Shown: positions 12,920-38,805, counted from the stretch's first letter. The stretch: DNA of 64,000 nt from an uncultured Anaeromyxobacteraceae bacterium (GCA_964470365.1 CAYYCO010000007.1:207-64206); one strand, 5' to 3'. Program-made: numbers and translations. Notes: generated from the letters alone by a model not told the origin.

Positions 12920-12977
12920 CACTTTCCCCGACACCCCCATTTCTGGTAAAGTCCTTCTGGCTTTGGAGTCTGCACCG

Positions 12978-15232: not shown

Positions 15233-15251
15233 TCCATTCGCAGGGGGCGCC

Positions 15252-17093
15252 ATGTCCACCGAAATGCCCGTTCATTCAAAGGCTTTCAAGATCCGCAGGT
15301 TCCTGAACTGGTTCCCCATGGGCCTGACGTACGCGTTCCTGTACATGGGCAGGTACAACCTGACCGTGGCCAAGAATTCGCTGGGCGACATGATGACCAA
15401 GGAGGACTTCGGCCTGATTTTCGGGGCCGGAACGCTGGTGTACGCATTCGCTTTCCTGCTGAACGGGCCGCTGACTGACAAGGTCGGCGGGAAAAAGGCC
15501 ATCCTTGCAGCGTCGCTCGGTTCGGGCATCATGAACCTGCTGATGGGCCTGTTCGTGTGGAACATGATCGTCAACCCGGGTTCGATGGCCCTGAACATGG
15601 TCACGACCATGTCGGTCATGTACGCGATCAACATGTATTTCCAGTCGTTCGCGGCGGTCGCCATCGTCAAGGTGAATTCGTCGTGGTTCCACGTACGCGA
15701 ACGCGGCGGATTTTCGGGCATTTTCGGCACGATGATCTCATCCGGCATCTTCTTCGCGTTCACCGTCAATTCCTGGATCCTGAACCTGACGTCCGCCTGG
15801 GGCCCGACCGGGTCGAAGGCCACCTGGTGGGTCTTCCTGATGCCGTCGTTCATCCTTTTCACGATGTTCGTCGTCGAAATATTCCTGCTGCGCGACACGC
15901 CGAAAAAGGCGGGGCTTGAAGACTTCAATACCGGCGACGCGACGTCCGATGTCGGCTCCGACGTCGGCCTGGCCCAGATCGTGAAAAAGGTACTGACCAA
16001 CCCGATCATCCTGACCGTCGCCTTCATCGAACTGTGCACCGGCGTCATCCGCAACGGCGTCATGCACTGGTTCCCGATTTATGCGAAGGAAGTCCTGGCC
16101 CTGCCGTCGCACCACATGCTGCGGGACGGGTCGTGGGCCGGACACCTTTGGTGGGTCGTTGCTGCCATGTTCGCGCTGGCCGCGATCCTGTTCATCCTTT
16201 CGACGAAGTTTACCGGCAAACGCAAGGCGACCCTGATCGTGTCCGGCGCCCTGATTGCGCTGGCGCCGTTCATGCAGGGCGGCTGGGGCGGCCTGCTGTT
16301 CGTGGCGGGCGTCATCGGCGGCAACGTGGCCGGCTGGGTCAGCGACCTGTTCTTCCAGTCCAGGCGCGCCCCCGCCGCGGCCGGGCTTTACGGGCTGCTG
16401 GCCCTGTGCCTGGTCGGCATGTACTTCAGCCTGAGCGGCACAAAATCGGAAGTTGGCTGGACGAAATCCGACGAATACGGGCTGAAAAAGGGTGACGTGG
16501 TCGTTTCCGTCAACGGGAAGGATGGCCTTCGGGACTGGACCGACGTATCGCGCGCGATTGCCTGCATCCCGTCCGCCTGTCAGGGCGACAAGGTCGTCTG
16601 GGACATGAAGGCCTGCATGTGCACGGCCAAACCGAAAGAACCCGCGGGCGCCGGCCTGCTCACATCGGACGGCACGATCCACCTGGTCGTCGATCGCGGC
16701 GGACGCGGTACCGCCGTCGAACTGAAGGACCCGCTGATGACGGCCCGCGCCGGCGATTCGCGCAGGCTGGACGCCGGGCCGGTCCTGACCCTGACGCCGT
16801 TCTTCCTGGGCCTCATCCTGTTCCTGGTTTCCCTGGGCGTCATCGGCACGCACGGCCTGCTTTCCGGCACCGCCACGATGGACTTCGGCGGCACGAAGGG
16901 CGCCGCCACCGCGGTCGGCATGATCGACGGCTTCGTTTATCTGGGCACCGCGCTGCAGAGCGTGTCCCTGGGCTTCCTGACCACCCGGTCATGGTCATAC
17001 TGGCCGCTGTTCATGCTGCCATTCAGTTTCCTGGGCTTCTTCCTGCTGACCCGCATCTGGAACGCCAAACCGAAGGCCGGCGGCGGGCACTAG
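15252..17093 (+). CDS. OPA-family MFS transporter (GlpT/UhpC-like) with an inserted PDZ-like, Cys-rich soluble domain
   Basis: Start set at MSTEMPVHSK. The N-terminus follows the GlpT/UhpC pattern (FLYMGRYNLTVAKNSLGDMMTKEDFGLIFGAGTLVYAFAFLLNGPLTDKVGGKK). A ~115-aa insertion sits before the last two TM helices. It carries a PDZ-like GLKKGDVVVSVNGKDGLRDW segment and five Cys (CIPSAC, CMC). Confidence 0.75.
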   Translation: MSTEMPVHSKAFKIRRFLNWFPMGLTYAFLYMGRYNLTVAKNSLGDMMTKEDFGLIFGAGTLVYAFAFLLNGPLTDKVGGKKAILAASLGSGIMNLLMGLFVWNMIVNPGSMALNMVTTMSVMYAINMYFQSFAAVAIVKVNSSWFHVRERGGFSGIFGTMISSGIFFAFTVNSWILNLTSAWGPTGSKATWWVFLMPSFILFTMFVVEIFLLRDTPKKAGLEDFNTGDATSDVGSDVGLAQIVKKVLTNPIILTVAFIELCTGVIRNGVMHWFPIYAKEVLALPSHHMLRDGSWAGHLWWVVAAMFALAAILFILSTKFTGKRKATLIVSGALIALAPFMQGGWGGLLFVAGVIGGNVAGWVSDLFFQSRRAPAAAGLYGLLALCLVGMYFSLSGTKSEVGWTKSDEYGLKKGDVVVSVNGKDGLRDWTDVSRAIACIPSACQGDKVVWDMKACMCTAKPKEPAGAGLLTSDGTIHLVVDRGGRGTAVELKDPLMTARAGDSRRLDAGPVLTLTPFFLGLILFLVSLGVIGTHGLLSGTATMDFGGTKGAATAVGMIDGFVYLGTALQSVSLGFLTTRSWSYWPLFMLPFSFLGFFLLTRIWNAKPKAGGGH

Positions 17094-18855: not shown

Positions 18856-19932
18856 TTGGCGGACCAGATTCCTGAACAGTTCCAGCTTTCGATGTACGAC
18901 TTCGACCTGCCGGACGACCGCATCGCCCAGGTCCCGGCCGACAGGCGCGACCATTCACGACTGATGCACCTCCCGCTTGCGGGCGGCGAACCGACCGACC
19001 ATGTCTTTTCCGACGTTGGCCGGTTCCTGCGTCCCGGCGACTGCCTGGTCCTGAACGACACGCGGGTATTTCCCGCGCGCCTGTTCGCAACCAAACCGGC
19101 GGGCGGGCGTGTGGAGCTGCTGGCCCTCGAATCCGGCGGCGATCGTTTCACCGCGATGTACGGGACTCACCGCGGCCTGCGGGCCGGGACGACGCTTGAA
19201 ATACTCGACCGCCACGGCGTGCCGTCCGGGCGGAAGGTCCTGGTTGAATCCACCGCGGAAGGGCGTGCGACAATCCTCGTCAAGGACGGCGATTCCGCCG
19301 ACGACGCAGCGACCCTGTTTGCCCGGTTCGGCCATATGCCGCTGCCGCCGTACATCAAGCGCCCCGACGACACCCATGACGACCTGGACCTGGATCGGTA
19401 CCAGACCGTCTACGCCGAAAACAACGGCGCGGTCGCGGCCCCCACGGCGGGCCTGCACTTCACCCCGGCCGTCCTTGACGGGCTGCGCGCGGCCGGCGTT
19501 GAAACGGTACGCGTGACCTTGCACGTCGGCCCGGGCACTTTCCGGCCGATCCGTACCGACGACGTCCGGCTGCACGACGTCGGGACCGAAAGTTTCGTGA
19601 TCACCGAAGAATCCGCGGCCGCGATCAACCGCGCGCTGGACGACGGCCGCCGCGTCATCGCGGTGGGTACCACGGTCGTACGCACGCTGGAATCCGCCGG
19701 CGCGGACGGCCGGGTCAGGCCTGGCAGCGAGGCCACATCGATCCTGATAACCCCCGGATACCGCTTCAGGATCATCAGCGGGATGCTGACGAACTTCCAC
19801 ATCCCGAAATCTTCCCTGATACTTCTGGTATCCGCCCTGGTCGGCCGTACACGCATACTGGACGCGTACCGTACGGCCGTCGCGCGCGATTACCGTTTCT
19901 ATTCGTATGGCGATTCGATGCTGATACTGTGA
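18856..19932 (+). CDS. queA: S-adenosylmethionine:tRNA ribosyltransferase-isomerase
   Basis: QueA signature throughout (DFDLPDDRIAQ, YQTVYA, GLHFT, ISGMLTNFHIPKSSL). An alternative start at Met 18892 is possible. Confidence 0.9.
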   Translation: MADQIPEQFQLSMYDFDLPDDRIAQVPADRRDHSRLMHLPLAGGEPTDHVFSDVGRFLRPGDCLVLNDTRVFPARLFATKPAGGRVELLALESGGDRFTAMYGTHRGLRAGTTLEILDRHGVPSGRKVLVESTAEGRATILVKDGDSADDAATLFARFGHMPLPPYIKRPDDTHDDLDLDRYQTVYAENNGAVAAPTAGLHFTPAVLDGLRAAGVETVRVTLHVGPGTFRPIRTDDVRLHDVGTESFVITEESAAAINRALDDGRRVIAVGTTVVRTLESAGADGRVRPGSEATSILITPGYRFRIISGMLTNFHIPKSSLILLVSALVGRTRILDAYRTAVARDYRFYSYGDSMLIL

Positions 19933-19966
19933 CGGCGTGGCCGCGAAAGGCCCGCCGGAGGGTTCG

Positions 19967-21124
19967 ATGTCCGACGGATTCAAGTTCGAACTGCTGATGA
20001 CCGACCCGCGCACGGGCGCCCGCCGCGGCCGCCTGCACACGCCGCACGGCACGGTCGAAACGCCATGCTTCATGCCTGTCGGCACGCTCGGCACGGTAAA
20101 AGGGATGCTTCCCGAAAACGTGGCGGCCGCCGGTTTCGGCCTGATCCTGGGCAACACATACCACCTGTCGCTGCGTCCCGGCCCCGATATCGTCGCCGCG
20201 CACGGCGGACTGCACCGGTTCATGGGCTGGAACGGCGCGATCCTGACCGATTCCGGGGGGTTCCAGGTCTTCAGCCTGTCCCACCGCCGCAAGCTGTCGG
20301 CCGACGGCGTCGCGTTCAAGTCGCACATCAACGGCGACCCGATCGAATTCACCCCGGAATCCGTCATCGGCATCCAGGAAAAGCTGGGGTCGGACATCGC
20401 GATGGTCCTTGACGTGTGCCCGCCTTCGACGGCGCCGGTCATGGAACTGGACCGCGCGCTTGAACTGACCACGCAGTGGGCCCGCCGATGCGTTAACGCG
20501 CGCACCCGCCACGACCAGGCGGTGTTCGGCATCGTCCAGGGCGGACTGGACGTGGAACGGCGCGTCCAGCACGCGGCCGCGCTGCGTGAAATGGATTTCG
20601 AGGGATTCGCCATCGGCGGACTTTCGGTCGGCGAGCCCCCGCACCAGATGTACCCGGTCGCCGCCGCCACCGCCGCCGCCCTGCCCGTCGACAAGCCGAG
20701 GTACCTGATGGGCGTGGGCATGCCTGCCGATCTTCCAAACTGCGTCGCGGGCGGCGTCGACATGTTCGACTGCGTGTTCCCGACCAGGTGCGGGCGCAAC
20801 GGCACATACCTGACCACGATCGGCCGTCTGAACATCAAAAACACGAAATACAGGGACGACCTGTCGCCGATCGACCCCGGCTGCGACTGCCCGGTCTGCA
20901 CCCGATTCACGGCGGCCTACCTGCGCCACCTTTACATTTCGGGCGAAATCCTGTCCAACGTGCTGAACACGACGCATAACCTGCATTACTATGCCAGGTT
21001 GATGGCCGACGTGCGCGCGGCCGTGGAAAACGGGACCATCGCGGAACTGGCATCCAGGCTGATTGGCATCCACGGCAGGGATCCGATGCTGGAAGCCGGT
21101 CGTAACGGCGGGGACGCGGACTGA
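19967..21124 (+). CDS. tgt: Queuine tRNA-ribosyltransferase
   Basis: Start at MSDGFKFELL. TGT motifs TPHGTVETPCFMPVGT and LGNTYHL are present, plus the Zn site CDCPVC with a downstream His. Confidence 0.9.
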   Translation: MSDGFKFELLMTDPRTGARRGRLHTPHGTVETPCFMPVGTLGTVKGMLPENVAAAGFGLILGNTYHLSLRPGPDIVAAHGGLHRFMGWNGAILTDSGGFQVFSLSHRRKLSADGVAFKSHINGDPIEFTPESVIGIQEKLGSDIAMVLDVCPPSTAPVMELDRALELTTQWARRCVNARTRHDQAVFGIVQGGLDVERRVQHAAALREMDFEGFAIGGLSVGEPPHQMYPVAAATAAALPVDKPRYLMGVGMPADLPNCVAGGVDMFDCVFPTRCGRNGTYLTTIGRLNIKNTKYRDDLSPIDPGCDCPVCTRFTAAYLRHLYISGEILSNVLNTTHNLHYYARLMADVRAAVENGTIAELASRLIGIHGRDPMLEAGRNGGDAD

Positions 21125-21134
21125 GGTAAAACCG

Positions 21135-22217
21135 ATGGATATTGCCGAACGCAGGCGCAGGAACGTGTTCAAGGGCGGATTGCTGGCGGCGCTGCTGATC
21201 ACGACCGCCTTCGTTGCCTGGAACCGCCTTTCGGATGGCGACCGGACGAAGAAACCCGTGACTAAGGAAGGGCTTGTATACGCCGGAATACCGGCCCGCG
21301 TCGAATTCGTGCCGACGCCGTCCGCTTCAGGCCCAGAACAGGCCTGGCGCATCCTGGTTGACACCGGTAACGTCTTCAACGCGTTCGATCCCGCGTCCGA
21401 ACTGGGCCGTCTGAACGCCACTCCCGGCGCCGACGCGGTCGATGTTTCGAGGGATCTCGGCGACGCAATCGGGGGCGCGATCGGAATCAGCCAGGCTACC
21501 CAGGGCGCATTCGACATAACGGTAAGGCCGCTGAAAAAACTCTGGAAAAAGGCTGTGGAAACCGGCATCGCCCCGACCGATTACGAATTGTCGGCGGCAC
21601 TGGAAAAGATCGGCTGGGGTTACCTGAGCCTGATTCGCGCCCCTTCAAATTCATGGAAGGTGTCGCGCGGGCGGCCCGGCATGGAACTGGACCTGGGCGG
21701 CATCGTCAAGGGATGGTCGGTTGACCGGGCCGTCCAGTGGCTGACGGACAGGCGCGTGAAATCGGCGCTCGTCCAGGTCGGCGGCGAAATCGGGCTGGTG
21801 GGCCAGTCGGACACGAACCGCCCCTGGCGCATCGGGATCAGGCATCCGCTCGACGGCAACAGGAACTGGACCGTCCTTTCAATCACGGGCCGCGCCGCCG
21901 TTTCGACCAGCGGCAACTACGAACAACCCATTAAAATCGGCGGCATTGATTACTACCACATCTTCGACCCGGCGATAGGGCGGCCGATTTCAACTGACAT
22001 CCTCGGCGTCACGGTTGTGGTGACTGCCGGACAGGACATGAATGCCAGGGCGGACGGGCTTGCCACCGCCTTCGCCGTCATGGGTGTGGACAAGGCGCTG
22101 GAAACGGCTGCGACCATGAAGGGCGTGGACGTTCTGTTCATCGTGCGCGACAAGGATGGCGGAAAGCCGGTCGAACGCACGACGCCGGGATTCAAACGGT
22201 TCAGGAAGGGGTCATGA
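21135..22217 (+). CDS. apbE: FAD:protein FMN transferase (ApbE family)
   Basis: Start at MDIAERRR. N-terminal TM anchor. ApbE-like core (GGIVKGWSVDRA, SGNYE, GIDYYHIFDP). Confidence 0.8.
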   Translation: MDIAERRRRNVFKGGLLAALLITTAFVAWNRLSDGDRTKKPVTKEGLVYAGIPARVEFVPTPSASGPEQAWRILVDTGNVFNAFDPASELGRLNATPGADAVDVSRDLGDAIGGAIGISQATQGAFDITVRPLKKLWKKAVETGIAPTDYELSAALEKIGWGYLSLIRAPSNSWKVSRGRPGMELDLGGIVKGWSVDRAVQWLTDRRVKSALVQVGGEIGLVGQSDTNRPWRIGIRHPLDGNRNWTVLSITGRAAVSTSGNYEQPIKIGGIDYYHIFDPAIGRPISTDILGVTVVVTAGQDMNARADGLATAFAVMGVDKALETAATMKGVDVLFIVRDKDGGKPVERTTPGFKRFRKGS

Positions 22218-22218
22218 A

Positions 22219-23280
22219 ATGAAACGAAGACTTCTGCTGACAGTCCTGGCATTCACCGCGCTCTCCACGTCCTGCGGCGGGGCCGGCTCGCCTGACGTGA
22301 CTGACGCGCCGGACGCCGGCGACAGTGTTTCCATGGACACCTTCGACCCGTTTCCGATGGACAACCTCATCAGAATCAACCAGATACAGGTCCTGGGCAC
22401 GCACAACAGCTATCACATCAGTTCGGTCGAGGACGGCACGGCCTCCGAAATCAACTATACCCACCCGCCGATCGCCGACCAGCTTGAAACATACGGTGTC
22501 AGGCAGCTTGAACTGGACATCTGGGAAACCGAAGAAGGCCTTTTCCGCTGCATCCACCTGATATTCATCGACGAAAAATCGCACTGCGACAACATCCGGG
22601 ACTGCCTCACGGCCGCCAGGGAATGGTCCGAGGCGCACCCGGGGCACGTCCCGATCGTGCTTGTCATCGAAATCAAGCAGGCGTACGGCGTCGATTACGA
22701 CAACGTTCAGGGCATCGTCGATTCAGGTTTCTACACCAGGTTGCACCAGATGTTCATCGAAACGCTGGGGCAGGACCGGATCATCACGCCTGATTCGGTC
22801 CGCGGCGACCACGCCACCCTGCGTGAAGCACTCGCGACGGACGGCTGGCCGACCCTCGGCCACTCGCGCGGAAAATTCCTGCTGGTCCTGAACACGACGT
22901 CCGAACGGGCCGGGCTGCGCGATGCATACATCCAGCAGTTCCCCGGGCTGCGCGGCGGCCTGCTGTTCGCAAAGGAAACCGACGCCGATTTCGGCACCGT
23001 GGTCGAACTGAACCGCGTGACCAGGGACGCAGACGCAATTTCAACCGCGCTGGCCGACAATTACATGGTCAGGGGTGCGGCCGACGGCATCGGCTGGGAC
23101 GATCCCACCATTGCCGAACTGGCGCCAATCACGCCTTCATACGGTGTCCACTGGGTCAACACCGATTTCCTGACGCCTCAGCCCGGCCGGACCCACGTCA
23201 TCGACTGGCCCGTGGAACACCCGGTACTGTGTAATCCGGTGAACGCCCCCGCGGGCTGTGAAGACTGGATGCTGGAATAG
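22219..23280 (+). CDS. PI-PLC-like (PLC-type phosphodiesterase) lipoprotein
   Basis: Start at MKRRLLLTVLAFTALSTSCGG (lipobox). The VLGTHNSYH motif is typical of the PLC-like phosphodiesterase TIM-barrel superfamily (Ca-dependent PI-PLC type). Family assignment is by motif only. Confidence 0.55.
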   Translation: MKRRLLLTVLAFTALSTSCGGAGSPDVTDAPDAGDSVSMDTFDPFPMDNLIRINQIQVLGTHNSYHISSVEDGTASEINYTHPPIADQLETYGVRQLELDIWETEEGLFRCIHLIFIDEKSHCDNIRDCLTAAREWSEAHPGHVPIVLVIEIKQAYGVDYDNVQGIVDSGFYTRLHQMFIETLGQDRIITPDSVRGDHATLREALATDGWPTLGHSRGKFLLVLNTTSERAGLRDAYIQQFPGLRGGLLFAKETDADFGTVVELNRVTRDADAISTALADNYMVRGAADGIGWDDPTIAELAPITPSYGVHWVNTDFLTPQPGRTHVIDWPVEHPVLCNPVNAPAGCEDWMLE

Positions 23281-23308
23281 CGCCGCAACAGACAGACGCC
23301 ACGGACCG

Positions 23309-26300
23309 TCAGGGTTTCGTCAGCCTGAATTCCACGCCGACAGGGAAGTGGTCGGACGGCCAGATGCCGTCATAAGAAGATTTAATGACTTCCGCGGACA
23401 CTGCCTTGAAGCCATCGTTGTGCAGAATCCAATCGATCCTTTCGCCACTCGAAATGCCGTCAAACCCGTGGAAAGTCCCCTCTTCCGGAAGCCCCAGCTC
23501 GACCCACGGGTCGATCAGGTTTCCGGTCACGCCCTCCCATTCGGCCGTTCCGGTCATCACGCCGTAAGTGGTCGAGTCAACGCCGCAGTTGAAATCGCCC
23601 GCCAGGAACGCCGGCCGGCCACCGCCCAGAAGCTGCATCTGTTCAAGCGTTATGACCGCCATTTCTTCGCGGATGCCGTCGACCGAAGTGTGGTCGAAGT
23701 GCGTGGAAAACACGTCGAATTCGAAATTGTCGGCAAGCCGCCGGAAGTGTCCCCAGGTGACGGCCCGCGGGAAAAGCTGGTCGACGTCATCGACCATCGT
23801 CCCGATTTCGTCCGGCGTGGCGCTCAGGGCAAACGTCTTTGTTTCAATCATTTCATAACGATCGGTCCGGTAGAAGATCCCGTTGTATTCGTCGACGAAG
23901 TTCTGGGAACGCTTTTCGCCGATCCACACCATGTTGGCCACGTTGTCCTTGATGAAGTCCATCGTTTCCACATAGCCTTCCTGGACGACCATGATGTCCG
24001 GCACGAATTCGTTAATCACGTTCAGGACGGGCTGCTGCCTTTCAGTCCAGCGCTTCCCCGGTTCCGAATCGAACGGCAGGCGCAGATTAAATGACAGGAA
24101 CCGGATGTTCTGGTCATAACGAACGGGAACTTCAGGCACTTCGACAACCTTGATCTCATTTCCATCAAGGTCCAGGATCCGGACCTTCATGACGTCACAA
24201 CCGGCTTCGACGATGGCCATCGGCGGGATTTCGTAAATACCCTGCCACCCTTCCGGAATCGCATCGCTGGGTTCGCAGACGTCGGCGTCCATGTTGCCCG
24301 CGAGTCCGCCGATCGTGAACATGTACACGTTGTTGTCCACGCCCCACTCGATGCCGTGCATGTGACCGTGGAAACTCGCCTGGATTCCCGCTTCCTTCAG
24401 CATCGGGGCCATCGCGACCTTCAGGCAGTCCTCGCCGTCGAATTCACACTCGCTGCCCCACTGGATCGCGTATGCGGGCTGGTGGATGAAGAACAGCTTC
24501 CACTGGGCCGTCTTGAATTCTTCGGTCTGGAACTGCTGCCGGAACCAGCCAACCTCGCCCCAGTCCGAATCGGGCATTGAAAGATAGAAATCCCTGATCC
24601 AGCCGCCGCCCAGCCAGACGTTCCCGATGCGCCGCGACCACCAGCCTTCCCCGAGGCCGTTTTCGATTTCGGCGACGTTACCCTGCGGCAACACGAACGA
24701 ATCGAAGTACCCCGGGGCGTTCTTTTCGTCATGATTGCCGGGAACAGCCCAGATGTTGACGCGGCTGCCAAGGTCCTGCCAGCCCTTGAATGTGATGTCG
24801 AATTCCTCTGGAAGTCCCGCCCCGGAAAGATCACCGACGCCAATCGCGAAATCGACGCCTTCGGCAAGGGCGATTTCGGACATCTTCCGCGTGTTTTCCT
24901 CGTTCGTGTGCGCGTCCGCGAACATGGCGAATTTCATCGGGACCGGGCCGTCCGGCATCGTCCGGAACGAAAGATCCGCCGTCGATTCCGCACCGACGCG
25001 CGCCCTGTACGAAATTTCCGTGGCTGGCGGCAGGCGGTCGATCTTCACTTCATACTGGCCGTTGAGGTCGGCCAGGCCGCATCTGGTGCGCGTCTGGTCG
25101 GCCCACCAGTAGTCGACGCAACCCTCATCCGTCACCGGCGTGGCGGTCCGCCAGACGATCGTGACGGTGTCGCGGTCGGACATCTGAATCATCGGTCCAC
25201 GCTTGAACGTCGCATCGCTGACGGGAATCCACGCCGCGCCGGTTCCCGTGCCCTCGCATCCCGATTCCCACACGAACCCCGGTCCCTCGCCGATCACCGC
25301 CATCGCGCGCGCCAGGAAATCCCGCATGACATCGCCGGTCGGAAGCCTGTTGGCAGATTCGATTTCCACCATGACGGCAGCAAATGTATCGAGTTTTTCG
25401 GCCGGCACCGCGCGCCCCGCCGCCATTTCGCCGATCACATCCAGCACGATGGCGCCGGCCGCACCGTACCTGCCAAGCTGATCGACCCACGGCTGAAGTG
25501 AGCCACGAAGTTCGTCCGACGGTCCCGGCTGCGCCCACATGTCCGGAAGCGCCGCAAATTCGGCGAACCGGGCCGCCAGCGTTGTCGGGTCAGGCGTCGC
25601 GCCCGAATCCCACGCTGCCCAGTAAGCAGTTGTCGCGGTCAGCAGGTCAGGCGCCATCGATTCATTGAAGGTATTCGACACGTTCACGCGGGCCATCAGG
25701 TCAAGCGCGGACGCGCCGTCTGCCGATCCGCCCAGCATCCGGGACATGGCGCCAACCGATTCCCACGGTTCGTAACCGGCGGCGTTCCACGCGTAGTCGG
25801 CGCACGTCGCCAGGGCCGGCAGCGAAGGGAACGGGAAAGGCATCGGGTTGAACAGGATACCGTCGAGGTGTTCCGGGAGATCGGCTGCCCTGCCCTGGAG
25901 CGGCCCCAGAAAAACCGTCGAACCGCTGTTGTCGATAACCGGATAATTGTCGCCCAGAAGAGGCTTGCGCTTGATCCAGGCGGCCACGGCGTCGGCGTCG
26001 GCGGCTGTGATGGTTTCGGGGATGACCTCGGTGCCGGTCCATCCGATACCGACATATTCAGGGATCTGCGAACCGGCAAGCGTGAGCGTGGTCGACGCCG
26101 TTTCCGCATTGCTCCAGTAGTCCGTCGGGACCCAGCCAAGCACGAGGTCGGGCATTTCGGCGTGGATGGCCTCAAACGCCCTCTTCGAAAAGTCTATCGC
26201 GGCTTCGTCGTACGAAGCATACGCAGCCAGGTCATCACCATGCAGTTCCTTTTTCGTGTCGTCGAAACTGAGGCTGAAGAGATCGAATCCAGCGTCCCTG

Positions 26301-27181
26301 AAAACCCTGACCTTATCCAGGAACACCGCCATGTCGGCATCGCTGGAAAAGACTATCGAACCTTCGTCAATCCTGAGCTGGACGCCAGGCATCATACCGG
26401 CCGCCTTGATGCCTGCGGTCATGCGGCCAAGCATCGCGATGTAGTCGGCCGGCCATTCCCCGGACCAGTAAGTGCCGACCCAGTCGGTGTAGATGTCCAT
26501 CTTCCCGGCGTAGATGTACTGGTTGAATTTCATGTCGGCCAGGTACGGCATCAACGCGAGGCGGTCCGCCTCGGAATACACCGGACCGTAGAACGTCTCG
26601 ATTACGCCGCGGAATTTCGACGCGGGCGCGTCGGCGATGAACAGTTCGGAACCGGCCAGGTGGCCCGGAATCTGGCGGACGGTCTTCCAGGCCCACAGCC
26701 TTCCACGATCGGAAGCGGCCACGATATGCACCGACTGATTGCCGCCGCCGTCCACGCTCCAGCGGACGATGTACGCCTCATCGCTTTCGGGTATCGCCGG
26801 CGCGCAGTCAGCGACGACCGCGGCCCATTCGGCGGAATCATGAACGAACACCGCCAGGCCGGCGGTACGGACGTATCCGCGGACCAGCCCCAGCGAAGAT
26901 TCCAGGAACGTCATTTCGGCATCGTCCATGTCGTCGCCGCCAATAAGCCCGGAAGACGCCGATTCCATTGCCGGCACCATTCCGGCGTTCCACGTCATTT
27001 CAACCACGGGCCGCGGCAGCGCGCCCGAACGCGATGCCACTGCATCGGCCGCCGGGCACCAGTCGACGTCGGGCGTGACAACGACGTCCGCCGACGCCAG
27101 GTCGTCCATGACGTCTTCGCCCCCGACGGGCCCGGAACACGCGGCAAGAAGAACCAGGAACGACAGAATCGACTTTTTCAT
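23309..27181 (-). CDS. 1290-aa multidomain lipoprotein: GH84-like beta-N-acetylglucosaminidase + purple-acid-phosphatase-like metallophosphoesterase + endonuclease/exonuclease/phosphatase (EEP) domain
   Basis: Lipobox MKKSILSFLVLLAACSG. GH84 hallmark FRGVIETFYGP...YIYAGKMD...FSLSFDD at aa ~189-330. A PAP N-terminal-like segment sits at aa ~660-730. Metallophosphatase motifs are FADAHTNEEN, GVGDLSGAG, VPGNHDE and GHMHG. The C-terminal EEP motifs are IRFLSFNLR, AGDFNCG and SDHFPV. Confidence 0.75.
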   Translation of the reverse strand: MKKSILSFLVLLAACSGPVGGEDVMDDLASADVVVTPDVDWCPAADAVASRSGALPRPVVEMTWNAGMVPAMESASSGLIGGDDMDDAEMTFLESSLGLVRGYVRTAGLAVFVHDSAEWAAVVADCAPAIPESDEAYIVRWSVDGGGNQSVHIVAASDRGRLWAWKTVRQIPGHLAGSELFIADAPASKFRGVIETFYGPVYSEADRLALMPYLADMKFNQYIYAGKMDIYTDWVGTYWSGEWPADYIAMLGRMTAGIKAAGMMPGVQLRIDEGSIVFSSDADMAVFLDKVRVFRDAGFDLFSLSFDDTKKELHGDDLAAYASYDEAAIDFSKRAFEAIHAEMPDLVLGWVPTDYWSNAETASTTLTLAGSQIPEYVGIGWTGTEVIPETITAADADAVAAWIKRKPLLGDNYPVIDNSGSTVFLGPLQGRAADLPEHLDGILFNPMPFPFPSLPALATCADYAWNAAGYEPWESVGAMSRMLGGSADGASALDLMARVNVSNTFNESMAPDLLTATTAYWAAWDSGATPDPTTLAARFAEFAALPDMWAQPGPSDELRGSLQPWVDQLGRYGAAGAIVLDVIGEMAAGRAVPAEKLDTFAAVMVEIESANRLPTGDVMRDFLARAMAVIGEGPGFVWESGCEGTGTGAAWIPVSDATFKRGPMIQMSDRDTVTIVWRTATPVTDEGCVDYWWADQTRTRCGLADLNGQYEVKIDRLPPATEISYRARVGAESTADLSFRTMPDGPVPMKFAMFADAHTNEENTRKMSEIALAEGVDFAIGVGDLSGAGLPEEFDITFKGWQDLGSRVNIWAVPGNHDEKNAPGYFDSFVLPQGNVAEIENGLGEGWWSRRIGNVWLGGGWIRDFYLSMPDSDWGEVGWFRQQFQTEEFKTAQWKLFFIHQPAYAIQWGSECEFDGEDCLKVAMAPMLKEAGIQASFHGHMHGIEWGVDNNVYMFTIGGLAGNMDADVCEPSDAIPEGWQGIYEIPPMAIVEAGCDVMKVRILDLDGNEIKVVEVPEVPVRYDQNIRFLSFNLRLPFDSEPGKRWTERQQPVLNVINEFVPDIMVVQEGYVETMDFIKDNVANMVWIGEKRSQNFVDEYNGIFYRTDRYEMIETKTFALSATPDEIGTMVDDVDQLFPRAVTWGHFRRLADNFEFDVFSTHFDHTSVDGIREEMAVITLEQMQLLGGGRPAFLAGDFNCGVDSTTYGVMTGTAEWEGVTGNLIDPWVELGLPEEGTFHGFDGISSGERIDWILHNDGFKAVSAEVIKSSYDGIWPSDHFPVGVEFRLTKP

Positions 27182-27238
27182 TTGATTACAACACCTCGAA
27201 GTCCCGACTGGAATGTTTAACAGATTCGCACCCTCGCC

Positions 27239-28174
27239 TCAAGGACGCCGTGGCTCGATCCGGGTTGTGCCGTCCCCGTCCCGCCGCCCGATGAAAGGTA
27301 CCGCCGCCGACGCGAGAATCACGAACAGAGCGCCCACTATTCCGTGAAGCGTTATTTTTTCCGAAAACGCCGCCACGCCGATCACATATGAAAACAATGG
27401 ATTGAAGAACGAAAACGGACTGACCATCGATGCCCGCGCGCGGGCGTATGCCGCCGTCATCATGAGCTGGCCGAGGATCCCGAACAGGCCCACGCAAATC
27501 AGCGTCGTCAGCGTCCATGGGCTGCGCAGATGTCCGATGACGGACGGGATGTCCATGCCGCTCCACCCCGTGAGAATGTCCACACCGATCGCGACTATCG
27601 CGAACAGGGTTCCCCAGACCGAAAAGTAAAACACGATGATGGCCGACGATTCGGTCGCGGAAAGCTGCTTTACCGTGACATAGGCAAGCGCGGAAAGGAC
27701 CGCCGAAACCAGGGTCAGCCCGGCCCAGAGGCCCGAAGCCCCCATGTCGGGGCCCACGAGGATCGCAACCCCCGCGAACGCGGCCACCGCGGGCGCCAGG
27801 ACGTGCATCGCCCTGTGTTCCTTCAGGATCAACGCCGAAAAGACGACCGTGAACACCGGTGAGGACTGGTTAAGTACGACGGCAGTCGACAGCGGCAGTT
27901 TTTCGATGCCCAGGAAAAAAAGGCACATGGCGCAGAAACCGAGAAGGGATCGGCGGAACAGCAACGGATGCCTGCCGGACCGCAGCGATCCCTGCCTGAC
28001 CAGGACCAGTATGCCCAGGGGAACAATTCCCGTGATGCTTCGGAAGAACAGCGAAACCACGAACGGCATATCGACGGTCGATGCCTTGACGCACGCACCC
28101 ATCAGCGCGAACGCCAGCGACGAGCCGACCATCAGCATCACCGCCGCATAGGGTCGCGGACGCGCCTGATTCAC
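27239..28174 (-). CDS. DMT-superfamily (EamA-like) transporter
   Basis: 311 aa with ~10 TM helices and two EamA-like halves. Confidence 0.8.
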   Translation of the reverse strand: MNQARPRPYAAVMLMVGSSLAFALMGACVKASTVDMPFVVSLFFRSITGIVPLGILVLVRQGSLRSGRHPLLFRRSLLGFCAMCLFFLGIEKLPLSTAVVLNQSSPVFTVVFSALILKEHRAMHVLAPAVAAFAGVAILVGPDMGASGLWAGLTLVSAVLSALAYVTVKQLSATESSAIIVFYFSVWGTLFAIVAIGVDILTGWSGMDIPSVIGHLRSPWTLTTLICVGLFGILGQLMMTAAYARARASMVSPFSFFNPLFSYVIGVAAFSEKITLHGIVGALFVILASAAVPFIGRRDGDGTTRIEPRRP

Positions 28175-28209
28175 ATTGATCTGTTCCAGACTTGTGTTTT
28201 CCAGCGGTT

Positions 28210-29097
28210 TCAGCGCGTGACCTTCTTGCCGCGGTTTCCGCCGATGATACCGGTCTTGATTTCGATCAGCTTCTTGTTTTTCGGGGTTCCGCCGTTGCCC
28301 TTTTTCACCGCCTGGACCGGGGCGGCGGGTTCATAGACCGCCGGGACGACCGCCGCGACGAGCATTTCCGGGTCCGGGGTCCTGGCGGAGCGCAGCGTGT
28401 CCGCGCCCCAGGCGACCGGTGCCGAAAGGATCATGCCGCCACGCGCGCGTTCCAGATTGGAATCGGTGGCGAAAACAACCGGTTCCACACGAGGCATCGT
28501 GAACCACACGACGGCGCCACCGACCACAAGCACGGCCGCAACCACACCGAATATCCAGCCCCTGCCGCCCTTTTTTTCCGCGGGCATTGACGTTGTCTGG
28601 GCCTGGGCCCTCGGTTTCGCCGCCTCTTCCTTCTGGCGCTGACGCGCCTCGTATTCCTTCAGCGCGGCTTCACGTTTGCGGCGTTCCTCTTCGACACGGG
28701 CCCGCCCCTCGGCGGCCCTCCGGCGATCCTCTTCCTCGCGGGCAAGCCTGGCGGCGTCCTGCTGCACCTTGAGGGCGCCCATCAAGGCCGCGGCCTCGTT
28801 GTTGACCTCGTCCTTGGAACGTTCAAGTATGCCCTTCAGCACACCCTTGGCCGCGTCGGGCGAACCGTGAACCGGCGGCAGATCCAGCGCCTTCATCGCG
28901 CCCGTTGGCGGAGGCGGAGGCATCGCGCCGCCTGCCGGCGGTGGTGGCGGAACATCGGGAATTGCCGGAACGTCGGGGATTTCCGGGACGGCCGGGGCGC
29001 CGGTGGCACCGCCGGCATTCCCGGCGTCGTTCACCGTGCCCGCGCCGGACTGGATTCCAACGTCTTCCTGACCTTTCGTCTTCTTCTTTTTCGCCAT
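28210..29097 (-). CDS. Hypothetical Pro-rich / coiled-coil single-pass membrane protein
   Basis: Start at MAKKKKTKGQ. Pro-rich PEIPDVPAIPDVPPPPPAGGAMPPPPP region, then a highly charged E/R/K coiled coil and a single TM (GWIFGVVAAVLVVGGAVVWF). Confidence 0.45.
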   Translation of the reverse strand: MAKKKKTKGQEDVGIQSGAGTVNDAGNAGGATGAPAVPEIPDVPAIPDVPPPPPAGGAMPPPPPTGAMKALDLPPVHGSPDAAKGVLKGILERSKDEVNNEAAALMGALKVQQDAARLAREEEDRRRAAEGRARVEEERRKREAALKEYEARQRQKEEAAKPRAQAQTTSMPAEKKGGRGWIFGVVAAVLVVGGAVVWFTMPRVEPVVFATDSNLERARGGMILSAPVAWGADTLRSARTPDPEMLVAAVVPAVYEPAAPVQAVKKGNGGTPKNKKLIEIKTGIIGGNRGKKVTR

Positions 29098-29215
29098 TTC
29101 ACCTGACCCGCATCGGCAAACTGAAAGCCCGTACAACAATCCGCCGAGATGTTATTGTCCCCCGCGACATGAGTCAACCGCATCATTGAACAAATCAGCA
29201 GAACAGCGGCCGGAA

Positions 29216-29986
29216 TCATTCCCAGGGCGCGCAGCCCCAGCGCAGGAACTTCGCCCTTACGCGCAGCACGTTTTCAGGATAGTTGAAATTCTGGGGAATC
29301 GTGGATTTTTTCCTGGCCCTGCCGGGCATGCCGAAACCGGCGTTGTACGCCGAAAGCCCCAAAACCATGCGGTTGTCGAAACGCTTCAGGAACCTGGACA
29401 GGATTATTGCGCCGCACCTGGCGTTTTCCAGTGGGTCCAGCAGGTCCCCGCAGCCAAGCCTCGCGGCCGGTCCAGCCATCACCTGCATCAGGCCGATAGC
29501 CCCCGCGTAAGAAATCACATTCACGGTCAGGGAGCTTTCAACACGCATGATCCCGAAGAGAAGCGCCGGGTCCAGGCCGGCCTCCGTGCCTGCCTTCACG
29601 GCAACGGCCCACGCATCCGCACACGAGATCCGGCGCTGGACGAAGTCGAAAGTCTCGGCCTCACGCCGCGGTCGGGCATCTGTCGACACGGCCTGCCTGA
29701 CGAACCCGGAGGGAATTTCGAATGGCCTCGACCTGGCCGACACCGGGTCAAGGTCCAACGGCAGCCAGCCGGGTGGCGCGGGGGGAATTTCCTGCGGGGC
29801 CGACCGCACGTCGTCCCGCACCGACGCGGCATTGACCGAAGGATAAACCGAGGCGCAGCCGGTGACGCAAAGCAACGCGCAGAAACCAGCGGCGATCGAC
29901 AAATCCGCGATATTGAACAAAACTGTCATCGGTATCGTCCGGCCGGGCAAACGAAAATTCGCCCATTTCCGTAATCGTTTTATCAT
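29216..29986 (-). CDS. Lytic transglycosylase (SLT domain) lipoprotein
   Basis: Start chosen at MIKRLRKWANFRL...FCALLCVTGCAS (positive n-region and lipobox). Met 29929 is an alternative start. SLT motif ESSLTVNVISYAGAIGLMQV...GLSAYNAG. Confidence 0.7.
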   Translation of the reverse strand: MIKRLRKWANFRLPGRTIPMTVLFNIADLSIAAGFCALLCVTGCASVYPSVNAASVRDDVRSAPQEIPPAPPGWLPLDLDPVSARSRPFEIPSGFVRQAVSTDARPRREAETFDFVQRRISCADAWAVAVKAGTEAGLDPALLFGIMRVESSLTVNVISYAGAIGLMQVMAGPAARLGCGDLLDPLENARCGAIILSRFLKRFDNRMVLGLSAYNAGFGMPGRARKKSTIPQNFNYPENVLRVRAKFLRWGCAPWE

Positions 29987-35693: not shown

Positions 35694-35775
35694 CAACTTT
35701 TATAACGCCTGCCAATTGTGGTACCATGCTTTCCGGGGTTCAAACGCCTTAATTGCGTTTCATCGGGGTTTGTCG

Positions 35776-36387: not shown

Positions 36388-36397
36388 TGGTGGACCT

Positions 36398-38183: not shown

Positions 38184-38203
38184 AAACCGTTTGGGGGGGG
38201 GCC

Positions 38204-38797: not shown

Positions 38798-38805
38798 GGT
38801 GTGAA

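What the first reader, a model, noticed from the sequence alone, without database searches (positions are those of the whole stretch)
22219..27181. Giant tri-catalytic lipoprotein (GH84-like glycosidase + purple-acid-phosphatase-like metallophosphoesterase + EEP phosphodiesterase) facing a PI-PLC-like lipoprotein
Seen in sequence.
- A single 1290-aa lipoprotein (23309-27181) concatenates three catalytic modules that normally occur as separate enzymes.
- GH84 hallmark block: FRGVIETFYGP...YIYAGKMD...FSLSFDD.
- A PAP-type N-terminal segment followed by metallophosphatase motifs GDxx / GNHD / GHMHG.
- C-terminal EEP motifs SFNLR, GDFN and SDHFPV.
- The convergent neighbour 29 nt away (22219-23280) is a second lipoprotein with the PLC-like GTHNSYH motif.
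- In the GH84 block, the position that in characterised O-GlcNAcases is the catalytic Asp-Asp pair (YxYAPKDD) reads KMD here (from memory of the family motif). This module may therefore be catalytically divergent, or a binding rather than hydrolysing module.

Inference.
- A surface-anchored enzyme that removes GlcNAc and cuts phosphodiester and phosphomonoester bonds in one polypeptide would suit dismantling GlcNAc-decorated polyol-phosphate polymers or phospho-glycolipids (wall/lipoteichoic-acid-like or GPI-like substrates) on prey cells.
- That fits a predatory myxobacterium. The hypothesis is untested.
Basis: partly seen in the sequence, partly recalled or inferred. Interest (0 to 1): 0.7.

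Follow-up and report, generated by a model that had tools for sequence, protein, structure and literature searches.

The report
Three-enzyme lipoprotein of uncultured Myxococcota
A real, conserved 1290-residue lipoprotein fuses a sugar-cutting enzyme (GH84) to two phosphate-ester-cutting enzymes; the fusion occurs in only one small group of uncultured Myxococcota, all three active sites look intact, and the substrate is unknown.

Summary
The ORF 23309-27181(-) is real. It encodes a lipoprotein with three catalytic modules: a complete GH84 unit, a binuclear metallophosphoesterase (MPE) with a purple-acid-phosphatase-like (PAP-like) fold, and a BT3783-like endonuclease/exonuclease/phosphatase (EEP) domain.

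- **Conservation:** all catalytic motifs are kept in four lineages of 66-78% identity, and dN/dS is about 0.1-0.3 in every module.
- **Rarity:** in an exhaustive HMMER scan of 1.84 billion cluster representatives, only one 50%-identity cluster spans all three modules.
- **Origin:** a sister MAG carries a GH84-only gene at the same chromosomal slot. A free MPE-EEP lipoprotein also exists, and so do adjacent EEP and MPE genes. The phosphoesterase pair was therefore appended to a resident GH84 gene.
- **The "KMD" claim is a mis-assignment:** the catalytic Asp-Asp is the intact FSLSFDD pair (D307/D308). KMD sits in a variable K-x-D sugar-binding motif.
- **The real oddity** is G410, which replaces a near-invariant active-site Trp (CpOGA Trp394). 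This marks an uncharacterised, metagenome-only GH84 subfamily.
- **The MPE is not a true PAP:** the fold is PAP-like, but the Tyr metal ligand is absent.
- **The PI-PLC neighbour** is real, but it is convergent, runs on directly from ApbE, and is missing in two of the four lineages.

The teichoic-acid/GPI idea remains untested. Verdict: a new variant of known kinds, of moderate interest.

The parts
23309..27181 (-). Whole gene: 1290-aa tri-modular lipoprotein (GH84 + PAP-fold metallophosphoesterase + EEP phosphoesterase)
   Evidence: ORF and translation. GC3 is 0.77. Pfam domains. Four orthologous lineages of 66-78% identity in at least 9 independent assemblies. dN/dS is 0.07-0.28 in every module.
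27137..27181 (-). Signal peptide with lipobox (MKKSILSFLVLLAAC; Cys15 is the predicted lipidated residue), followed by an acidic low-confidence tether (residues about 16-75)
   Evidence: Sequence. A Cys-containing lipobox is conserved in the orthologues and in the stand-alone homologues. pLDDT is below 50 for the tether.
26627..26959 (-). GH84 N-terminal alpha/beta domain (GH20 domain-2-like), residues about 75-185
   Evidence: Weak Pfam Glyco_hydro_20b match at 80-172. AF2 model and Foldseek alignment to full-length CpGH84B, CpOGA and BtGH84.
25727..26611 (-). GH84 catalytic (beta/alpha)8 barrel, residues 191-485
   Evidence: PF07555 1.8e-54. PDB phmmer 3.7e-31 to CpGH84B. Foldseek TM 0.73-0.79.
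26258..26263 (-). Catalytic Asp-Asp dyad D307-D308 (in FSLSFDD)
   Evidence: Aligns with BtGH84 D242/D243. Invariant in 61/61 sequences. The DD motif is defined in PMC4263850.
26495..26503 (-).
   Evidence: K is conserved in 56/61 and D in 61/61. Position x is variable: D 36, G 9, N 8, M 4. It corresponds to CpOGA Lys218 (PMC2828546).
25931..25960 (-). Active-site loop LLGDNYPVID. G410 replaces the near-invariant Trp (CpOGA Trp394). N412 and D417 are conserved sugar ligands.
   Evidence: W in 56/61 and G only in the tri-domain clade within alignment A1. The G-type subfamily makes up 29-33 of the top GH84 representatives. Roles of Trp394, Tyr335, Asn396 and Asp401 are from PMC2828546.
25286..25723 (-). 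GH84 C-terminal helical bundle, residues about 487-632. The fusion junction follows it.
   Evidence: Weak NagJ_C match. Helices in the AF2 model. The stand-alone orthologue at L010 ends here.
24947..25249 (-). Beta-sandwich domain in front of the MPE (PAP-N-like fold), residues about 645-745
   Evidence: AF2 strands, pLDDT above 90. Foldseek aligns sandwich plus MPE to plant PAPs 3zk4, 6gja, 1xzw and 4dsy at E about 1e-17 to 1e-19. Pfam PF16656 was not detected in the query but is present in distant relatives P0152, P0153 and P0383.
24134..24937 (-). Binuclear metallophosphoesterase domain, residues 749-1016. Motifs: D756-x-H758, G783-D784, G815-N-H-D818, H900 (FIHQP) and G939-H-M-H942.
   Evidence: PF00149 9e-12. 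Motif positions. All motifs are conserved in P0002-P0004 and P0121-P0150. Alignment to PAP shows Gly787 where PAP has the Tyr ligand.
23312..24106 (-). EEP-fold phosphoesterase, BT3783-like, residues 1026-1290. Motifs: N1032 (SFNLR), E1068 (VQEG), D1196/N1198 (GDFN), D1277/H1278 (SDHFPV).
   Evidence: PF03372 1e-13. phmmer 7e-26 and 8e-26 to 3mpr and 4c1r, with all blocks aligned. Foldseek TMt 0.85-0.89.
22219..23280 (+). Convergent neighbour: probable lipoprotein of the Ca2+-dependent PI-PLC family (PI-PLC-C1). Positional neighbour only, not a conserved partner.
   Evidence: PF16670 1.7e-53. PDB 3h4w (S. antibioticus PLC1) 6e-13. Present in the P0001 and P0003 loci only. It starts 1 nt after the ApbE stop codon.
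27239..28174 (-). Upstream co-directional EamA/DMT transporter gene, 57 nt from the large gene. This pairing is conserved even where the gene is GH84-only.
   Evidence: PF00892. Synteny in L002, L007, L009 and L010.

Best explanation
The gene encodes a lipid-anchored, extracytoplasmic multi-enzyme with three independently active catalytic modules on one chain.

1. A complete GH84 beta-N-acetylhexosaminidase unit (N-domain, TIM barrel, helical bundle). It keeps the substrate-assisted catalytic machinery, the D307/D308 dyad. It belongs to an uncharacterised 'G-type' subfamily in which the aromatic wall of the -1 / N-acyl site (Trp394 of CpOGA) is Gly and the neighbouring loops carry insertions.
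2. A binuclear metallophosphoesterase with a PAP-like fold but a generic D-x-H metal site.
3. A Mg2+-type EEP phosphoesterase of the BT3783 (glycan mannose-6-phosphatase) subfamily.

It arose in one small clade of uncultured Myxococcota. A pre-existing MPE-EEP lipoprotein lost its signal peptide and tether and was joined to the C-terminus of the resident GH84 lipoprotein gene.

**Inferred mechanism.** The modules act in succession on one phosphorylated glycoconjugate that bears beta-GlcNAc-type residues. The phosphoesterases open phosphodiester links and remove exposed sugar-phosphate monoesters. The GH84 removes terminal beta-HexNAc. This follows the glycosidase-plus-EEP-phosphatase logic of the Bacteroides yeast-mannan system.

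**Shown:** domain identities, intact active sites, purifying selection, rarity and the evolutionary route.

**Inferred:** that the three modules share a substrate, the order of action, and cellular location beyond 'lipoprotein'.

**Unknown:** the substrate.
For: - **Domains and folds:**
- **GH84 active site:** DD is invariant, and K227, D229, Y355, N412, D417 and N445 are conserved.
- **MPE and EEP active sites:** all five MPE motifs and all EEP catalytic blocks are present and conserved in the orthologues.
- **Selection:** purifying selection on every module and on the junction.
- **Not an artefact:** the same 1290-1292-aa architecture is found in at least 9 independent assemblies.
- **In-situ fusion:** L010 has a 665-aa GH84-only orthologue (57% identity) in the same UvrD...EamA-[gene]-ApbE-TGT-QueA slot.
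- **MPE and EEP linked three ways:** as adjacent co-directional genes in L016, as a 752-754-aa MPE-EEP lipoprotein P0121/P0431, and in the tri-domain protein.
- **Clean junction:** the fusion point keeps the W-x-SGCEG-GTGAAW start of the free MPE domain.
- **Functional precedent:** the closest characterised EEP relative is BT3783, a phosphatase acting on phosphorylated N-glycan together with a glycosidase (PMC4978465).
Against: - No biochemical data exist for any member.
- Stand-alone G-type GH84, MPE and EEP genes sit in unrelated, uninformative neighbourhoods. There is therefore no general GH84-phosphoesterase system outside this clade.
- The only GH84 found near the free MPE-EEP gene (L025) is a distant W-type paralogue, 7 kb away on the other strand.
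- Fusion can reflect co-localisation rather than a shared substrate.
- Outer-surface versus periplasmic orientation cannot be read from the sequence.
- The W-to-G change could lower, rather than alter, GlcNAcase activity.
Confidence: 0.6

Rival explanations
1. Co-localised scavenging enzymes without a common substrate. The fusion simply places a general HexNAc-releasing glycosidase and two broad phosphatases or diesterases on the same lipid anchor (or on vesicles). Their job would be to harvest sugar, nitrogen and phosphate from mixed organic matter.
For: - PAP-fold enzymes and EEP enzymes are often broad phosphatases. The nearest folds include phytase-type PAPs and the PPD1 diphosphonucleotide phosphatase.
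- The stand-alone versions of each module are monocistronic lipoproteins scattered among housekeeping genes.
- The MPE module is also fused to an unrelated N-terminal domain in P0150.
- A second Metallophos protein lies in the window at 12963-14699.
Against: - MPE and EEP are linked repeatedly, as neighbouring genes, as a bi-domain protein and in the tri-domain protein. This argues for more than chance co-localisation of those two modules.
- The EEP belongs to a glycan-phosphatase subfamily rather than a nuclease subfamily.
Confidence: 0.25
2. One reading: a surface enzyme that, together with the facing PI-PLC lipoprotein, dismantles GlcNAc-decorated polyol-phosphate polymers (wall or lipoteichoic acids) or GPI-like phospho-glycolipids of prey cells.
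For: - The chemistry is compatible with a beta-GlcNAcase, a diesterase and a monoesterase acting together.
- The taxon is Myxococcota.
- A PI-PLC-C1 gene lies next door in two lineages.
- A weak ceramidase-like gene (23 bits, below the Pfam cut-off of 32) sits next to the free MPE-EEP gene.
- An SLT lytic transglycosylase gene lies upstream on the same strand.
Against: - The PI-PLC is absent in two of the four lineages and in the GH84-only sister. It is convergent and runs on from ApbE.
- No teichoic-acid-specific or GPI-specific enzyme (for example GlpQ/GDPD) is present in the neighbourhood.
- These MAGs come from sludge and lake metagenomes and their lifestyle is unknown.
- Surface exposure has not been shown.
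Confidence: 0.1
3. The GH84 module is a non-hydrolysing binding module, or is otherwise catalytically dead. It would target the two phosphoesterases to GlcNAc-bearing material.
For: - Trp394 (CpOGA numbering) is replaced by Gly, and the active-site loops are remodelled.
- The Pfam NAGidase score is only 185 bits, against 320-390 bits for canonical GH84s.
- The NCBIfam GlcNAcase equivalog cut-off is not reached: 124 bits against 1000.
Against: - The catalytic DD dyad and all hydrogen-bonding sugar ligands are strictly kept across the whole G-type subfamily, and dN/dS for the barrel is about 0.12-0.15.
- KMD is not the dyad.
- Stand-alone G-type GH84 lipoproteins exist, and they would have no evident role if inactive.
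Confidence: 0.05
4. Artefact: a chimeric assembly or a frameshift that joins neighbouring genes.
For: None found. The idea is raised only because the architecture is unique to one cluster.
Against: - The same uninterrupted 1290-1292-aa ORF occurs in independent samples and assemblers: Logan SRR10083296, SRR10466901, SRR10466941, SRR27069941, SRR36201526 and ERR14064716; JGI 3300027719 and 3300004241; and NCBI MAGs.
- Codon-level purifying selection runs across the junctions.
Confidence: 0.01

Closest known systems
Bacterial GH84 beta-N-acetylglucosaminidases (C. perfringens NagJ/CpOGA and CpGH84B; B. thetaiotaomicron BtGH84)
   Same: - The same three-domain unit: GH20b-like N-domain, (beta/alpha)8 barrel and helical bundle, with Foldseek TM 0.73-0.79.
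- The catalytic DD dyad and the K, Y, N, D and N sugar ligands are conserved.
   Different: - Only 19-23% identity in the structural alignments.
- Gly replaces the Trp394-equivalent residue, and there are two short insertions next to active-site loops.
- It carries two phosphoesterase domains at the C-terminus, where the known enzymes have CBM32, FIVAR, cohesin or FN3 modules.
- It is lipid-anchored.
BT3783 (PDB 3MPR/4C1R), the EEP-fold mannosyl-6-phosphatase of the Bacteroides yeast-mannan PUL
   Same: - About 30% identity end to end, with every catalytic block aligned.
- TMt 0.85.
- It works alongside a glycosidase on a phosphorylated glycan (PMC4978465).
   Different: - BT3783 is a separate protein encoded beside its partner glycosidases.
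- Here the domain is covalently fused to an MPE and a GH84.
- The substrate of the Myxococcota domain is unknown.
Plant purple acid phosphatases (kidney bean and sweet potato PAP, wheat PAP phytase, lupin PPD1)
   Same: - N-terminal beta-sandwich plus MPE core: about 430-450 aligned columns, Foldseek E about 1e-17 to 1e-19.
- The GNH(D/E), H and GHxH motifs are shared.
   Different: - Motif I is D-x-H, not D-x-G.
- The tyrosine ligand of GDxxY is Gly787, so no Fe(III)-tyrosinate ('purple') site is expected.
- Pfam Pur_ac_phosph_N was not detected.
Free MPE-EEP lipoprotein of Myxococcota (P0121/P0431; NCBI HNU68043.1, annotated 'metallophosphoesterase')
   Same: - 66% identity over residues about 620-1290.
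- Same domain order and same motifs.
   Different: - It has its own signal peptide and tether and no GH84.
- It lies at a different locus.
- It is uncharacterised.
Streptomyces antibioticus Ca2+-dependent PI-PLC (PDB 3H4W/3H4X), compared with the neighbouring gene
   Same: - PI-PLC-C1 family: Pfam 1.7e-53 and PDB 6e-13.
   Different: - It is a probable lipoprotein.
- It is not conserved next to the tri-domain gene.

Membership tests
Glycoside hydrolase family 84 | Sequence match to the GH84 catalytic domain model (Pfam PF07555) above the gathering score | tested here: met
   185.5 bits against a cut-off of 25, covering residues 191-485. This is lower than canonical GH84s, which score 320-390 bits.
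Glycoside hydrolase family 84 | Adjacent catalytic Asp-Asp pair (hOGA D174/D175, BtGH84 D242/D243, CpOGA D297/D298) | tested here: met
   D307/D308 align with the BtGH84 dyad and are invariant in 61/61 sequences. The motif is defined in PMC4263850.
Glycoside hydrolase family 84 | (beta/alpha)8 barrel flanked by an N-terminal alpha/beta domain and a C-terminal helical bundle | tested here: met
   The AF2 model has pLDDT 86 and pTM 0.88. Foldseek gives TM 0.73-0.79 to 6pv5, 2ydq and 2x0h over about 600 columns.
Glycoside hydrolase family 84 | Conserved -1 subsite residues (CpOGA Lys218, Tyr335, Trp394, Asn396, Asp401 and the NPM Asn) | tested here: inconclusive
   K227, Y355, N412, D417 and N445 are conserved, but Trp394 is replaced by Gly410. 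The same change is found in a subfamily of 29-33 representatives.
Glycoside hydrolase family 84 | Beta-N-acetylglucosaminidase activity with retention, through substrate assistance | not testable with these tools
   This needs an enzyme assay.
NCBIfam NF041654 GlcNAcase (equivalog) | Score above the curated cut-off | tested here: not met
   124 bits against a cut-off of 1000. The protein is not an equivalog of the named enzyme.
Calcineurin-like metallophosphoesterase superfamily | Five metal-binding motifs: D-x-H, GD, GNH(D/E), H and GHxH | tested here: met
   D756-A-H758, G783-D784, G815-N-H-D818, H900 and G939-H-M-H942. PF00149 scores 46 bits against a cut-off of 21.5. The motifs are conserved in the orthologues.
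Purple acid phosphatase | N-terminal fibronectin-like beta-sandwich packed on the MPE core | tested here: met
   Fold level only: Foldseek hits 3zk4, 6gja, 1xzw and 4dsy at E about 1e-17 to 1e-19. Pfam PF16656 was not detected at E <= 0.1.
Purple acid phosphatase | Seven invariant ligands including the Tyr of GDxxY (the Fe(III)-tyrosinate chromophore), with motif I as D-x-G | tested here: not met
   The query reads GDLSG, with Gly787 at the Tyr position, and motif I is D-A-H (alignment).
EEP superfamily, BT3783-like subfamily | EEP fold with the catalytic Asn, Glu, Asp-x-Asn and Asp-His blocks | tested here: met
   N1032, E1068, D1196/N1198 and D1277/H1278 align block for block with 3mpr and 4c1r. 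TMt is 0.85-0.89. PF03372 scores 51.9 bits against a cut-off of 24.5.
EEP superfamily, BT3783-like subfamily | Sugar-6-phosphate (glycan) phosphomonoesterase activity | not testable with these tools
   Only homology to BT3783 is available (PMC4978465).
Bacterial lipoprotein | Signal peptide ending in a lipobox [LVI][ASTVI][GAS]C | tested here: met
   L12-A13-A14-C15. An equivalent Cys is present in the orthologues and in the stand-alone modules. Lipidation and final location have not been tested.
PI-PLC-C1 (neighbour 22219-23280) | Match to PF16670 above the cut-off and to S. antibioticus PLC1 | tested here: met
   182 bits against a cut-off of 29.9. PDB 3h4w at 6e-13.
Conserved two-gene system: tri-domain enzyme plus PI-PLC | Co-occurrence of the two genes across orthologous loci | tested here: not met
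   The PI-PLC is present in the P0001 and P0003 loci. It is absent in the P0002 and P0004 loci and in L009 and L010.

The most novel reading that the evidence does not exclude
The G-type GH84 subfamily (Trp394 replaced by Gly, with remodelled loops) may have a new glycosidase specificity. One example would be a beta-HexNAc with a bulkier or different N-acyl or ring substituent than O-GlcNAc-type substrates. In that case the tri-domain protein would be a dedicated single-polypeptide pathway that fully strips one specific phosphorylated glycoconjugate, such as a teichoic-acid-like, phosphoglycan or glycolipid head-group structure. The MPE-EEP pair would provide obligatory diester and monoester cleavage steps.
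Probability: 0.15. Interest if true: 0.7.

Novelty: new variant of a known kind. Interest (0 to 1): 0.42.

Why it matters
- **A clean gene-fusion case.** GH84, MPE and EEP enzymes are normally separate proteins. Here the stand-alone, adjacent-gene, two-domain and three-domain stages can all still be found in relatives. This predicts that the MPE and BT3783-like EEP families of these bacteria work together, and probably also with a glycosidase, on phosphorylated glycans.
- **A new GH84 subfamily.** About 30 clusters at 50% identity, all from metagenomes, lack an active-site tryptophan that is present in every solved GH84. This is a concrete target for finding a new specificity in a family known almost only for O-GlcNAc and GlcNAc removal.
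- **Limits.** The fusion is confined to a few uncultured Myxococcota, and no substrate can be named. Its present value is as a hypothesis generator, not as a new mechanism.

Tried and rejected
- **KMD as the catalytic dyad:** rejected by alignment to BtGH84, CpGH84B and TtOGA and by column statistics.
- **Genuine purple acid phosphatase:** rejected, because the Tyr ligand is absent and motif I is DxH.
- **PI-PLC as an obligate partner:** rejected by comparing loci.
- **Other proteins combining GH84 with MPE or EEP:**
  - The word-indexed search of 5.8 billion clusters found only P0001-P0004.
  - The exhaustive HMMER search of 1.84 billion representatives found one cluster.
  - All multi-stretch and long hits that I checked were tandem EEP, tandem MPE or GH84 plus CBM proteins.
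- **Informative neighbours of the stand-alone modules:** contexts of P0154, P0122 and P0276 were uninformative.
- **The L025 cluster:** it contains GH5, GH84, a ceramidase-like gene and MPE-EEP. However, the GH84 there is a distant W-type paralogue (27% identity), and the ceramidase match is below Pfam's cut-off. I kept it only as a lead.
- **Promoter and terminator scan of 21900-28300:** nothing above shuffled expectation.
- **Literature:**
  - No paper mentions GH84 together with myxobacteria.
  - Searches for hOGA Trp278 found nothing.
  - The role of the equivalent CpOGA Trp394 came from PMC2828546.

Full report
**1. The observation**

The ORF 23309-27181 on the minus strand is present and encodes 1290 residues. 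Its third-position GC of 0.77 is typical of the window's genes. A GAGG Shine-Dalgarno-like element lies upstream of the ATG at 27181. The N-terminus, MKKSILSFLVLLAAC, is a signal peptide ending in a canonical lipobox (L-A-A-C15) and is followed by an acidic tether.

Pfam confirms three catalytic domains above their gathering scores:

| Domain | Pfam | Residues | E-value |
|---|---|---|---|
| NAGidase | PF07555 | 191-485 | 1.8e-54 |
| Metallophos | PF00149 | 749-942 | 9e-12 |
| Exo_endo_phos | PF03372 | 1029-1278 | 1e-13 |

There are also weak matches to the GH20b-like N-domain and the NagJ_C helical domain.

The convergent neighbour 22219-23280(+) is a PI-PLC-C1 protein (PF16670, 1.7e-53). It is related to the Ca2+-dependent PLC1 of Streptomyces antibioticus (PDB 3h4w, 6e-13). 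The gap between the two stop codons is 28 nt.

**2. The GH84 module and the "KMD" claim**

phmmer against the PDB aligns residues 133-585 with CpGH84B, TtOGA and BtGH84.
- In that alignment the BtGH84 dyad (positions 242/243 of chain 2chn_A, 'FAVFFDD') lies opposite D307/D308 of FSLSFDD. PMC4263850 defines the GH84 'DD motif' as Asp174/Asp175 of human OGA.
- In a 61-sequence alignment both Asp are invariant.
- KMD corresponds to the 'PKDD' motif. K227 (56/61) and D229 (61/61) are conserved, while the middle position is variable (D 36, G 9, N 8, M 4).

The inference that the module may be catalytically divergent because of KMD is therefore an alignment offset.

An AlphaFold2 model of residues 25-640 (pLDDT 86, pTM 0.88) superposes on full-length CpGH84B, CpOGA and BtGH84 with TM 0.73-0.79. 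The complete three-domain GH84 unit is present.

**3. What is unusual in the GH84 module**

The loop that reads W-[WD]-N-Y-P-V-N-D-Y in other GH84s reads G410-D-N-Y-P-V-I-D-N here.
- The Trp is present in 56 of 61 aligned sequences. It corresponds to CpOGA Trp394, which together with Tyr335 sandwiches active-site ligands. Lys218, Asn396 and Asp401 make the hydrogen bonds (PMC2828546).
- The equivalents of those other residues are all kept: K227, Y355, N412, D417 and N445.

The Gly variant is not private to the fusion.
- The stand-alone relatives at L010 and L013 have it.
- Among the best GH84 hits of the exhaustive search, 29-33 representatives carry it.
- This 'G-type' group also differs by two short insertions next to Y355 and D417 and by many subfamily-specific residues.
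- It scores only about 185 bits on the Pfam model, against 320-390 bits for canonical enzymes.
- Where sources name an organism, members come from Myxococcota or 'Deltaproteobacteria' MAGs.
- No solved structure belongs to the group.

I read this as an uncharacterised GH84 subfamily with retained catalytic machinery and a reshaped -1 / N-acyl and aglycone environment. The functional consequence is inference only.

**4. The two phosphoesterase modules**

A model of residues 620-1290 is confident (pLDDT 93).

EEP domain:
- It is closest to 3g6s, 3mpr and 4c1r (TMt 0.85-0.89, about 30% identity).
- By sequence it aligns end to end with BT3783 (7e-26 and 8e-26) through every conserved block: SFNLR, QEG, IFYRTD, PR..TWGHF, H.DH, GDFN, RIDWI and PSDHFPV.
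- BT3783 is the phosphatase that, with a GH92 mannosidase, dephosphorylates phosphorylated high-mannose glycans in the Bacteroides mannan system (PMC4978465).

MPE domain:
- Together with the preceding beta-sandwich it is closest in fold to plant purple acid phosphatases (3zk4, 6gja, 1xzw, 4dsy; E about 1e-17 to 1e-19, about 430-450 aligned columns).
- Pfam Pur_ac_phosph_N is not detected in the query.
- The motif-anchored alignment to wheat PAP shows D-A-H where PAPs have D-x-G, and Gly787 where PAPs have the Fe(III)-binding Tyr of GDxxY.

It is thus a PAP-fold enzyme with a generic binuclear MPE site, not a true purple acid phosphatase. All five MPE motifs are intact and are conserved in relatives.

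**5. How rare it is, and how it arose**

Rarity:
- The word-indexed search of 5.8 billion clusters returned only four tri-domain clusters (100, 78, 72 and 66% identity). All other hits were GH84-only.
- An exhaustive HMMER search of 1.84 billion 50%-identity representatives, using residues 91-1290, found a single representative spanning all three modules.
- Every multi-stretch or unusually long hit that I inspected was a tandem EEP, a tandem MPE or a GH84 with carbohydrate-binding modules.
- NCBI holds members under the automatic name 'beta-N-acetylglucosaminidase domain-containing protein [Myxococcota bacterium]', for example HOD06772.1 and MBP7382158.1.
- The ORF recurs uninterrupted in at least nine independent assemblies, so it is not an assembly artefact.
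- dN/dS is 0.07-0.28 in each module and in the junction regions. dS is saturated, so these values are rough.

Origin:
- Orthologous loci share the order UvrD - x - SLT - hyp - EamA - [gene] - (PI-PLC) - ApbE - TGT - QueA.
- In MAG CAZFVA01 (L010) the same slot holds a 665-aa GH84-only lipoprotein (57% identity) that stops exactly after the helical bundle.
- Stand-alone MPE lipoproteins (50-66% identity, about 30 clusters) and stand-alone EEP lipoproteins (49-61%) exist in Myxococcota MAGs.
- A free MPE-EEP lipoprotein of 752-754 aa (66% identity) occurs elsewhere.
- In L016 a BT3783-like EEP gene is followed 180 nt later by the MPE lipoprotein gene.
- The junction in the tri-domain protein preserves the 'W-x-SGCEG-GTGAAW' start of the free MPE domain.

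The simplest history is: the MPE and EEP genes became neighbours, then fused, and the pair (without its signal peptide and tether) was appended to the resident GH84 gene.

**6. The neighbour and the wider context**

- The PI-PLC gene is present in only two of the four tri-domain lineages. It is absent from the P0002 and P0004 loci and from L009 and L010.
- It is convergent with the large gene. It starts 1 nt after ApbE, or overlaps ApbE by 4 nt in L006, so it is more likely transcribed with QueA-TGT-ApbE.
- It is a positional neighbour, not a conserved partner.
- The conserved co-directional upstream genes are SLT, a hypothetical protein and an EamA transporter (gaps of 118, 71 and 57 nt). No terminator-like site was predicted between EamA and the large gene. 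Whether they form an operon is untested.
- Neighbourhoods of the stand-alone modules gave no pathway signal.
- The locus of the free MPE-EEP gene contains a GH5, a GH84, a weak ceramidase-like gene and a further EEP-like gene within about 10 kb. However, that GH84 is a distant W-type paralogue (27% identity), and the ceramidase match is below Pfam's cut-off. I keep it only as a lead.

**7. Most likely mechanism**

Shown:
- A lipid-anchored extracytoplasmic protein, with conserved Cys pairs in the MPE module (consistent with an extracytoplasmic protein).
- Three intact active sites under purifying selection.

Inferred:
- The modules cooperate on one phosphorylated glycoconjugate bearing beta-GlcNAc-type residues.
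- The MPE would open diester or pyrophosphate links, the EEP would remove exposed sugar-phosphate monoesters (as BT3783 does), and the GH84 would remove terminal beta-HexNAc.
- The order of steps and the substrate are unknown.

The main rival is that the fusion merely co-localises general scavenging enzymes. The teichoic-acid/GPI-on-prey idea is chemically possible but has no specific support. A non-catalytic GH84 is unlikely, given the conserved dyad and ligands.

**8. Novelty and verdict**

- All three domains belong to known superfamilies, and the nearest characterised relatives are clear.
- Three things are new: (a) the covalent combination, confined to one small clade of uncultured Myxococcota; (b) the traceable stepwise fusion; (c) the G-type GH84 subfamily that lacks the active-site Trp.
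- This is a new variant of known kinds.
- Interest is moderate. A CAZyme specialist would notice the architecture and the W-to-G subfamily, but no open question becomes testable without biochemistry.

Noticed in passing
window 25931-25960 (-); also P0274-P0334 and loci L010 and L013: A whole GH84 subfamily, known only from metagenomes, replaces the near-invariant active-site Trp (CpOGA Trp394) with Gly. It also carries two short insertions beside Y355 and D417. It contributes 29-33 of the best GH84 cluster representatives, and where an organism is named it is Myxococcota or Deltaproteobacteria.
   Followed up: partly
L016 2-2074 and 2254-3846: A protein with two tandem EEP domains (the second is BT3783-like) is followed 180 nt later by an MPE lipoprotein gene. 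This is the unfused, reverse-order counterpart of the MPE-EEP part of the window protein.
   Followed up: partly
L025 1-18344 (GCA_035350495.1, DAOPUI010000005.1): The free MPE-EEP lipoprotein (752 aa) lies in a cluster with a GH5, a W-type GH84 (727 aa), a TetR regulator, a 482-aa protein with a sub-threshold neutral-ceramidase match (23 bits against a cut-off of 32), and a further EEP-like protein. This may be a glycolipid- or glycan-degrading locus.
   Followed up: partly
L017 and L018 (P0150, 892 aa): The same MPE module (52% identity) is fused behind an unrelated N-terminal region of about 500 aa that has no Pfam match. The MPE module therefore recombines with different partners.
   Followed up: no
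window 27239-29929 (-): SLT lytic transglycosylase, a hypothetical protein and an EamA transporter lie co-directionally upstream of the large gene, with gaps of 118, 71 and 57 nt. The order is conserved even in L010, where the gene is GH84-only. This may be an operon.
   Followed up: partly
window 12963-14699 (+) and 11189-12919 (+): A second Metallophos protein (578 aa) sits next to a CarboxypepD_reg-domain protein. It lies upstream of an MFS transporter that carries a weak PDZ match (15165-17093).
   Followed up: no
window 18955-20910 (-): This long ORF (651 aa, high GC3) is a shadow frame. The real genes are QueA (18856-19932, +) and TGT (19937-21124, +) on the opposite strand.
   Followed up: yes
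window 8873-10663 (+): A sigma-54 activator with FHA and GAF sensor domains.
   Followed up: no
window 33690-42147 (+): Large proteins of 667 and 1119 aa with no Pfam match flank short genes. In the syntenic locus L002 the equivalents of those short genes carry N_methyl (type IV pilin-like) signals.
   Followed up: no
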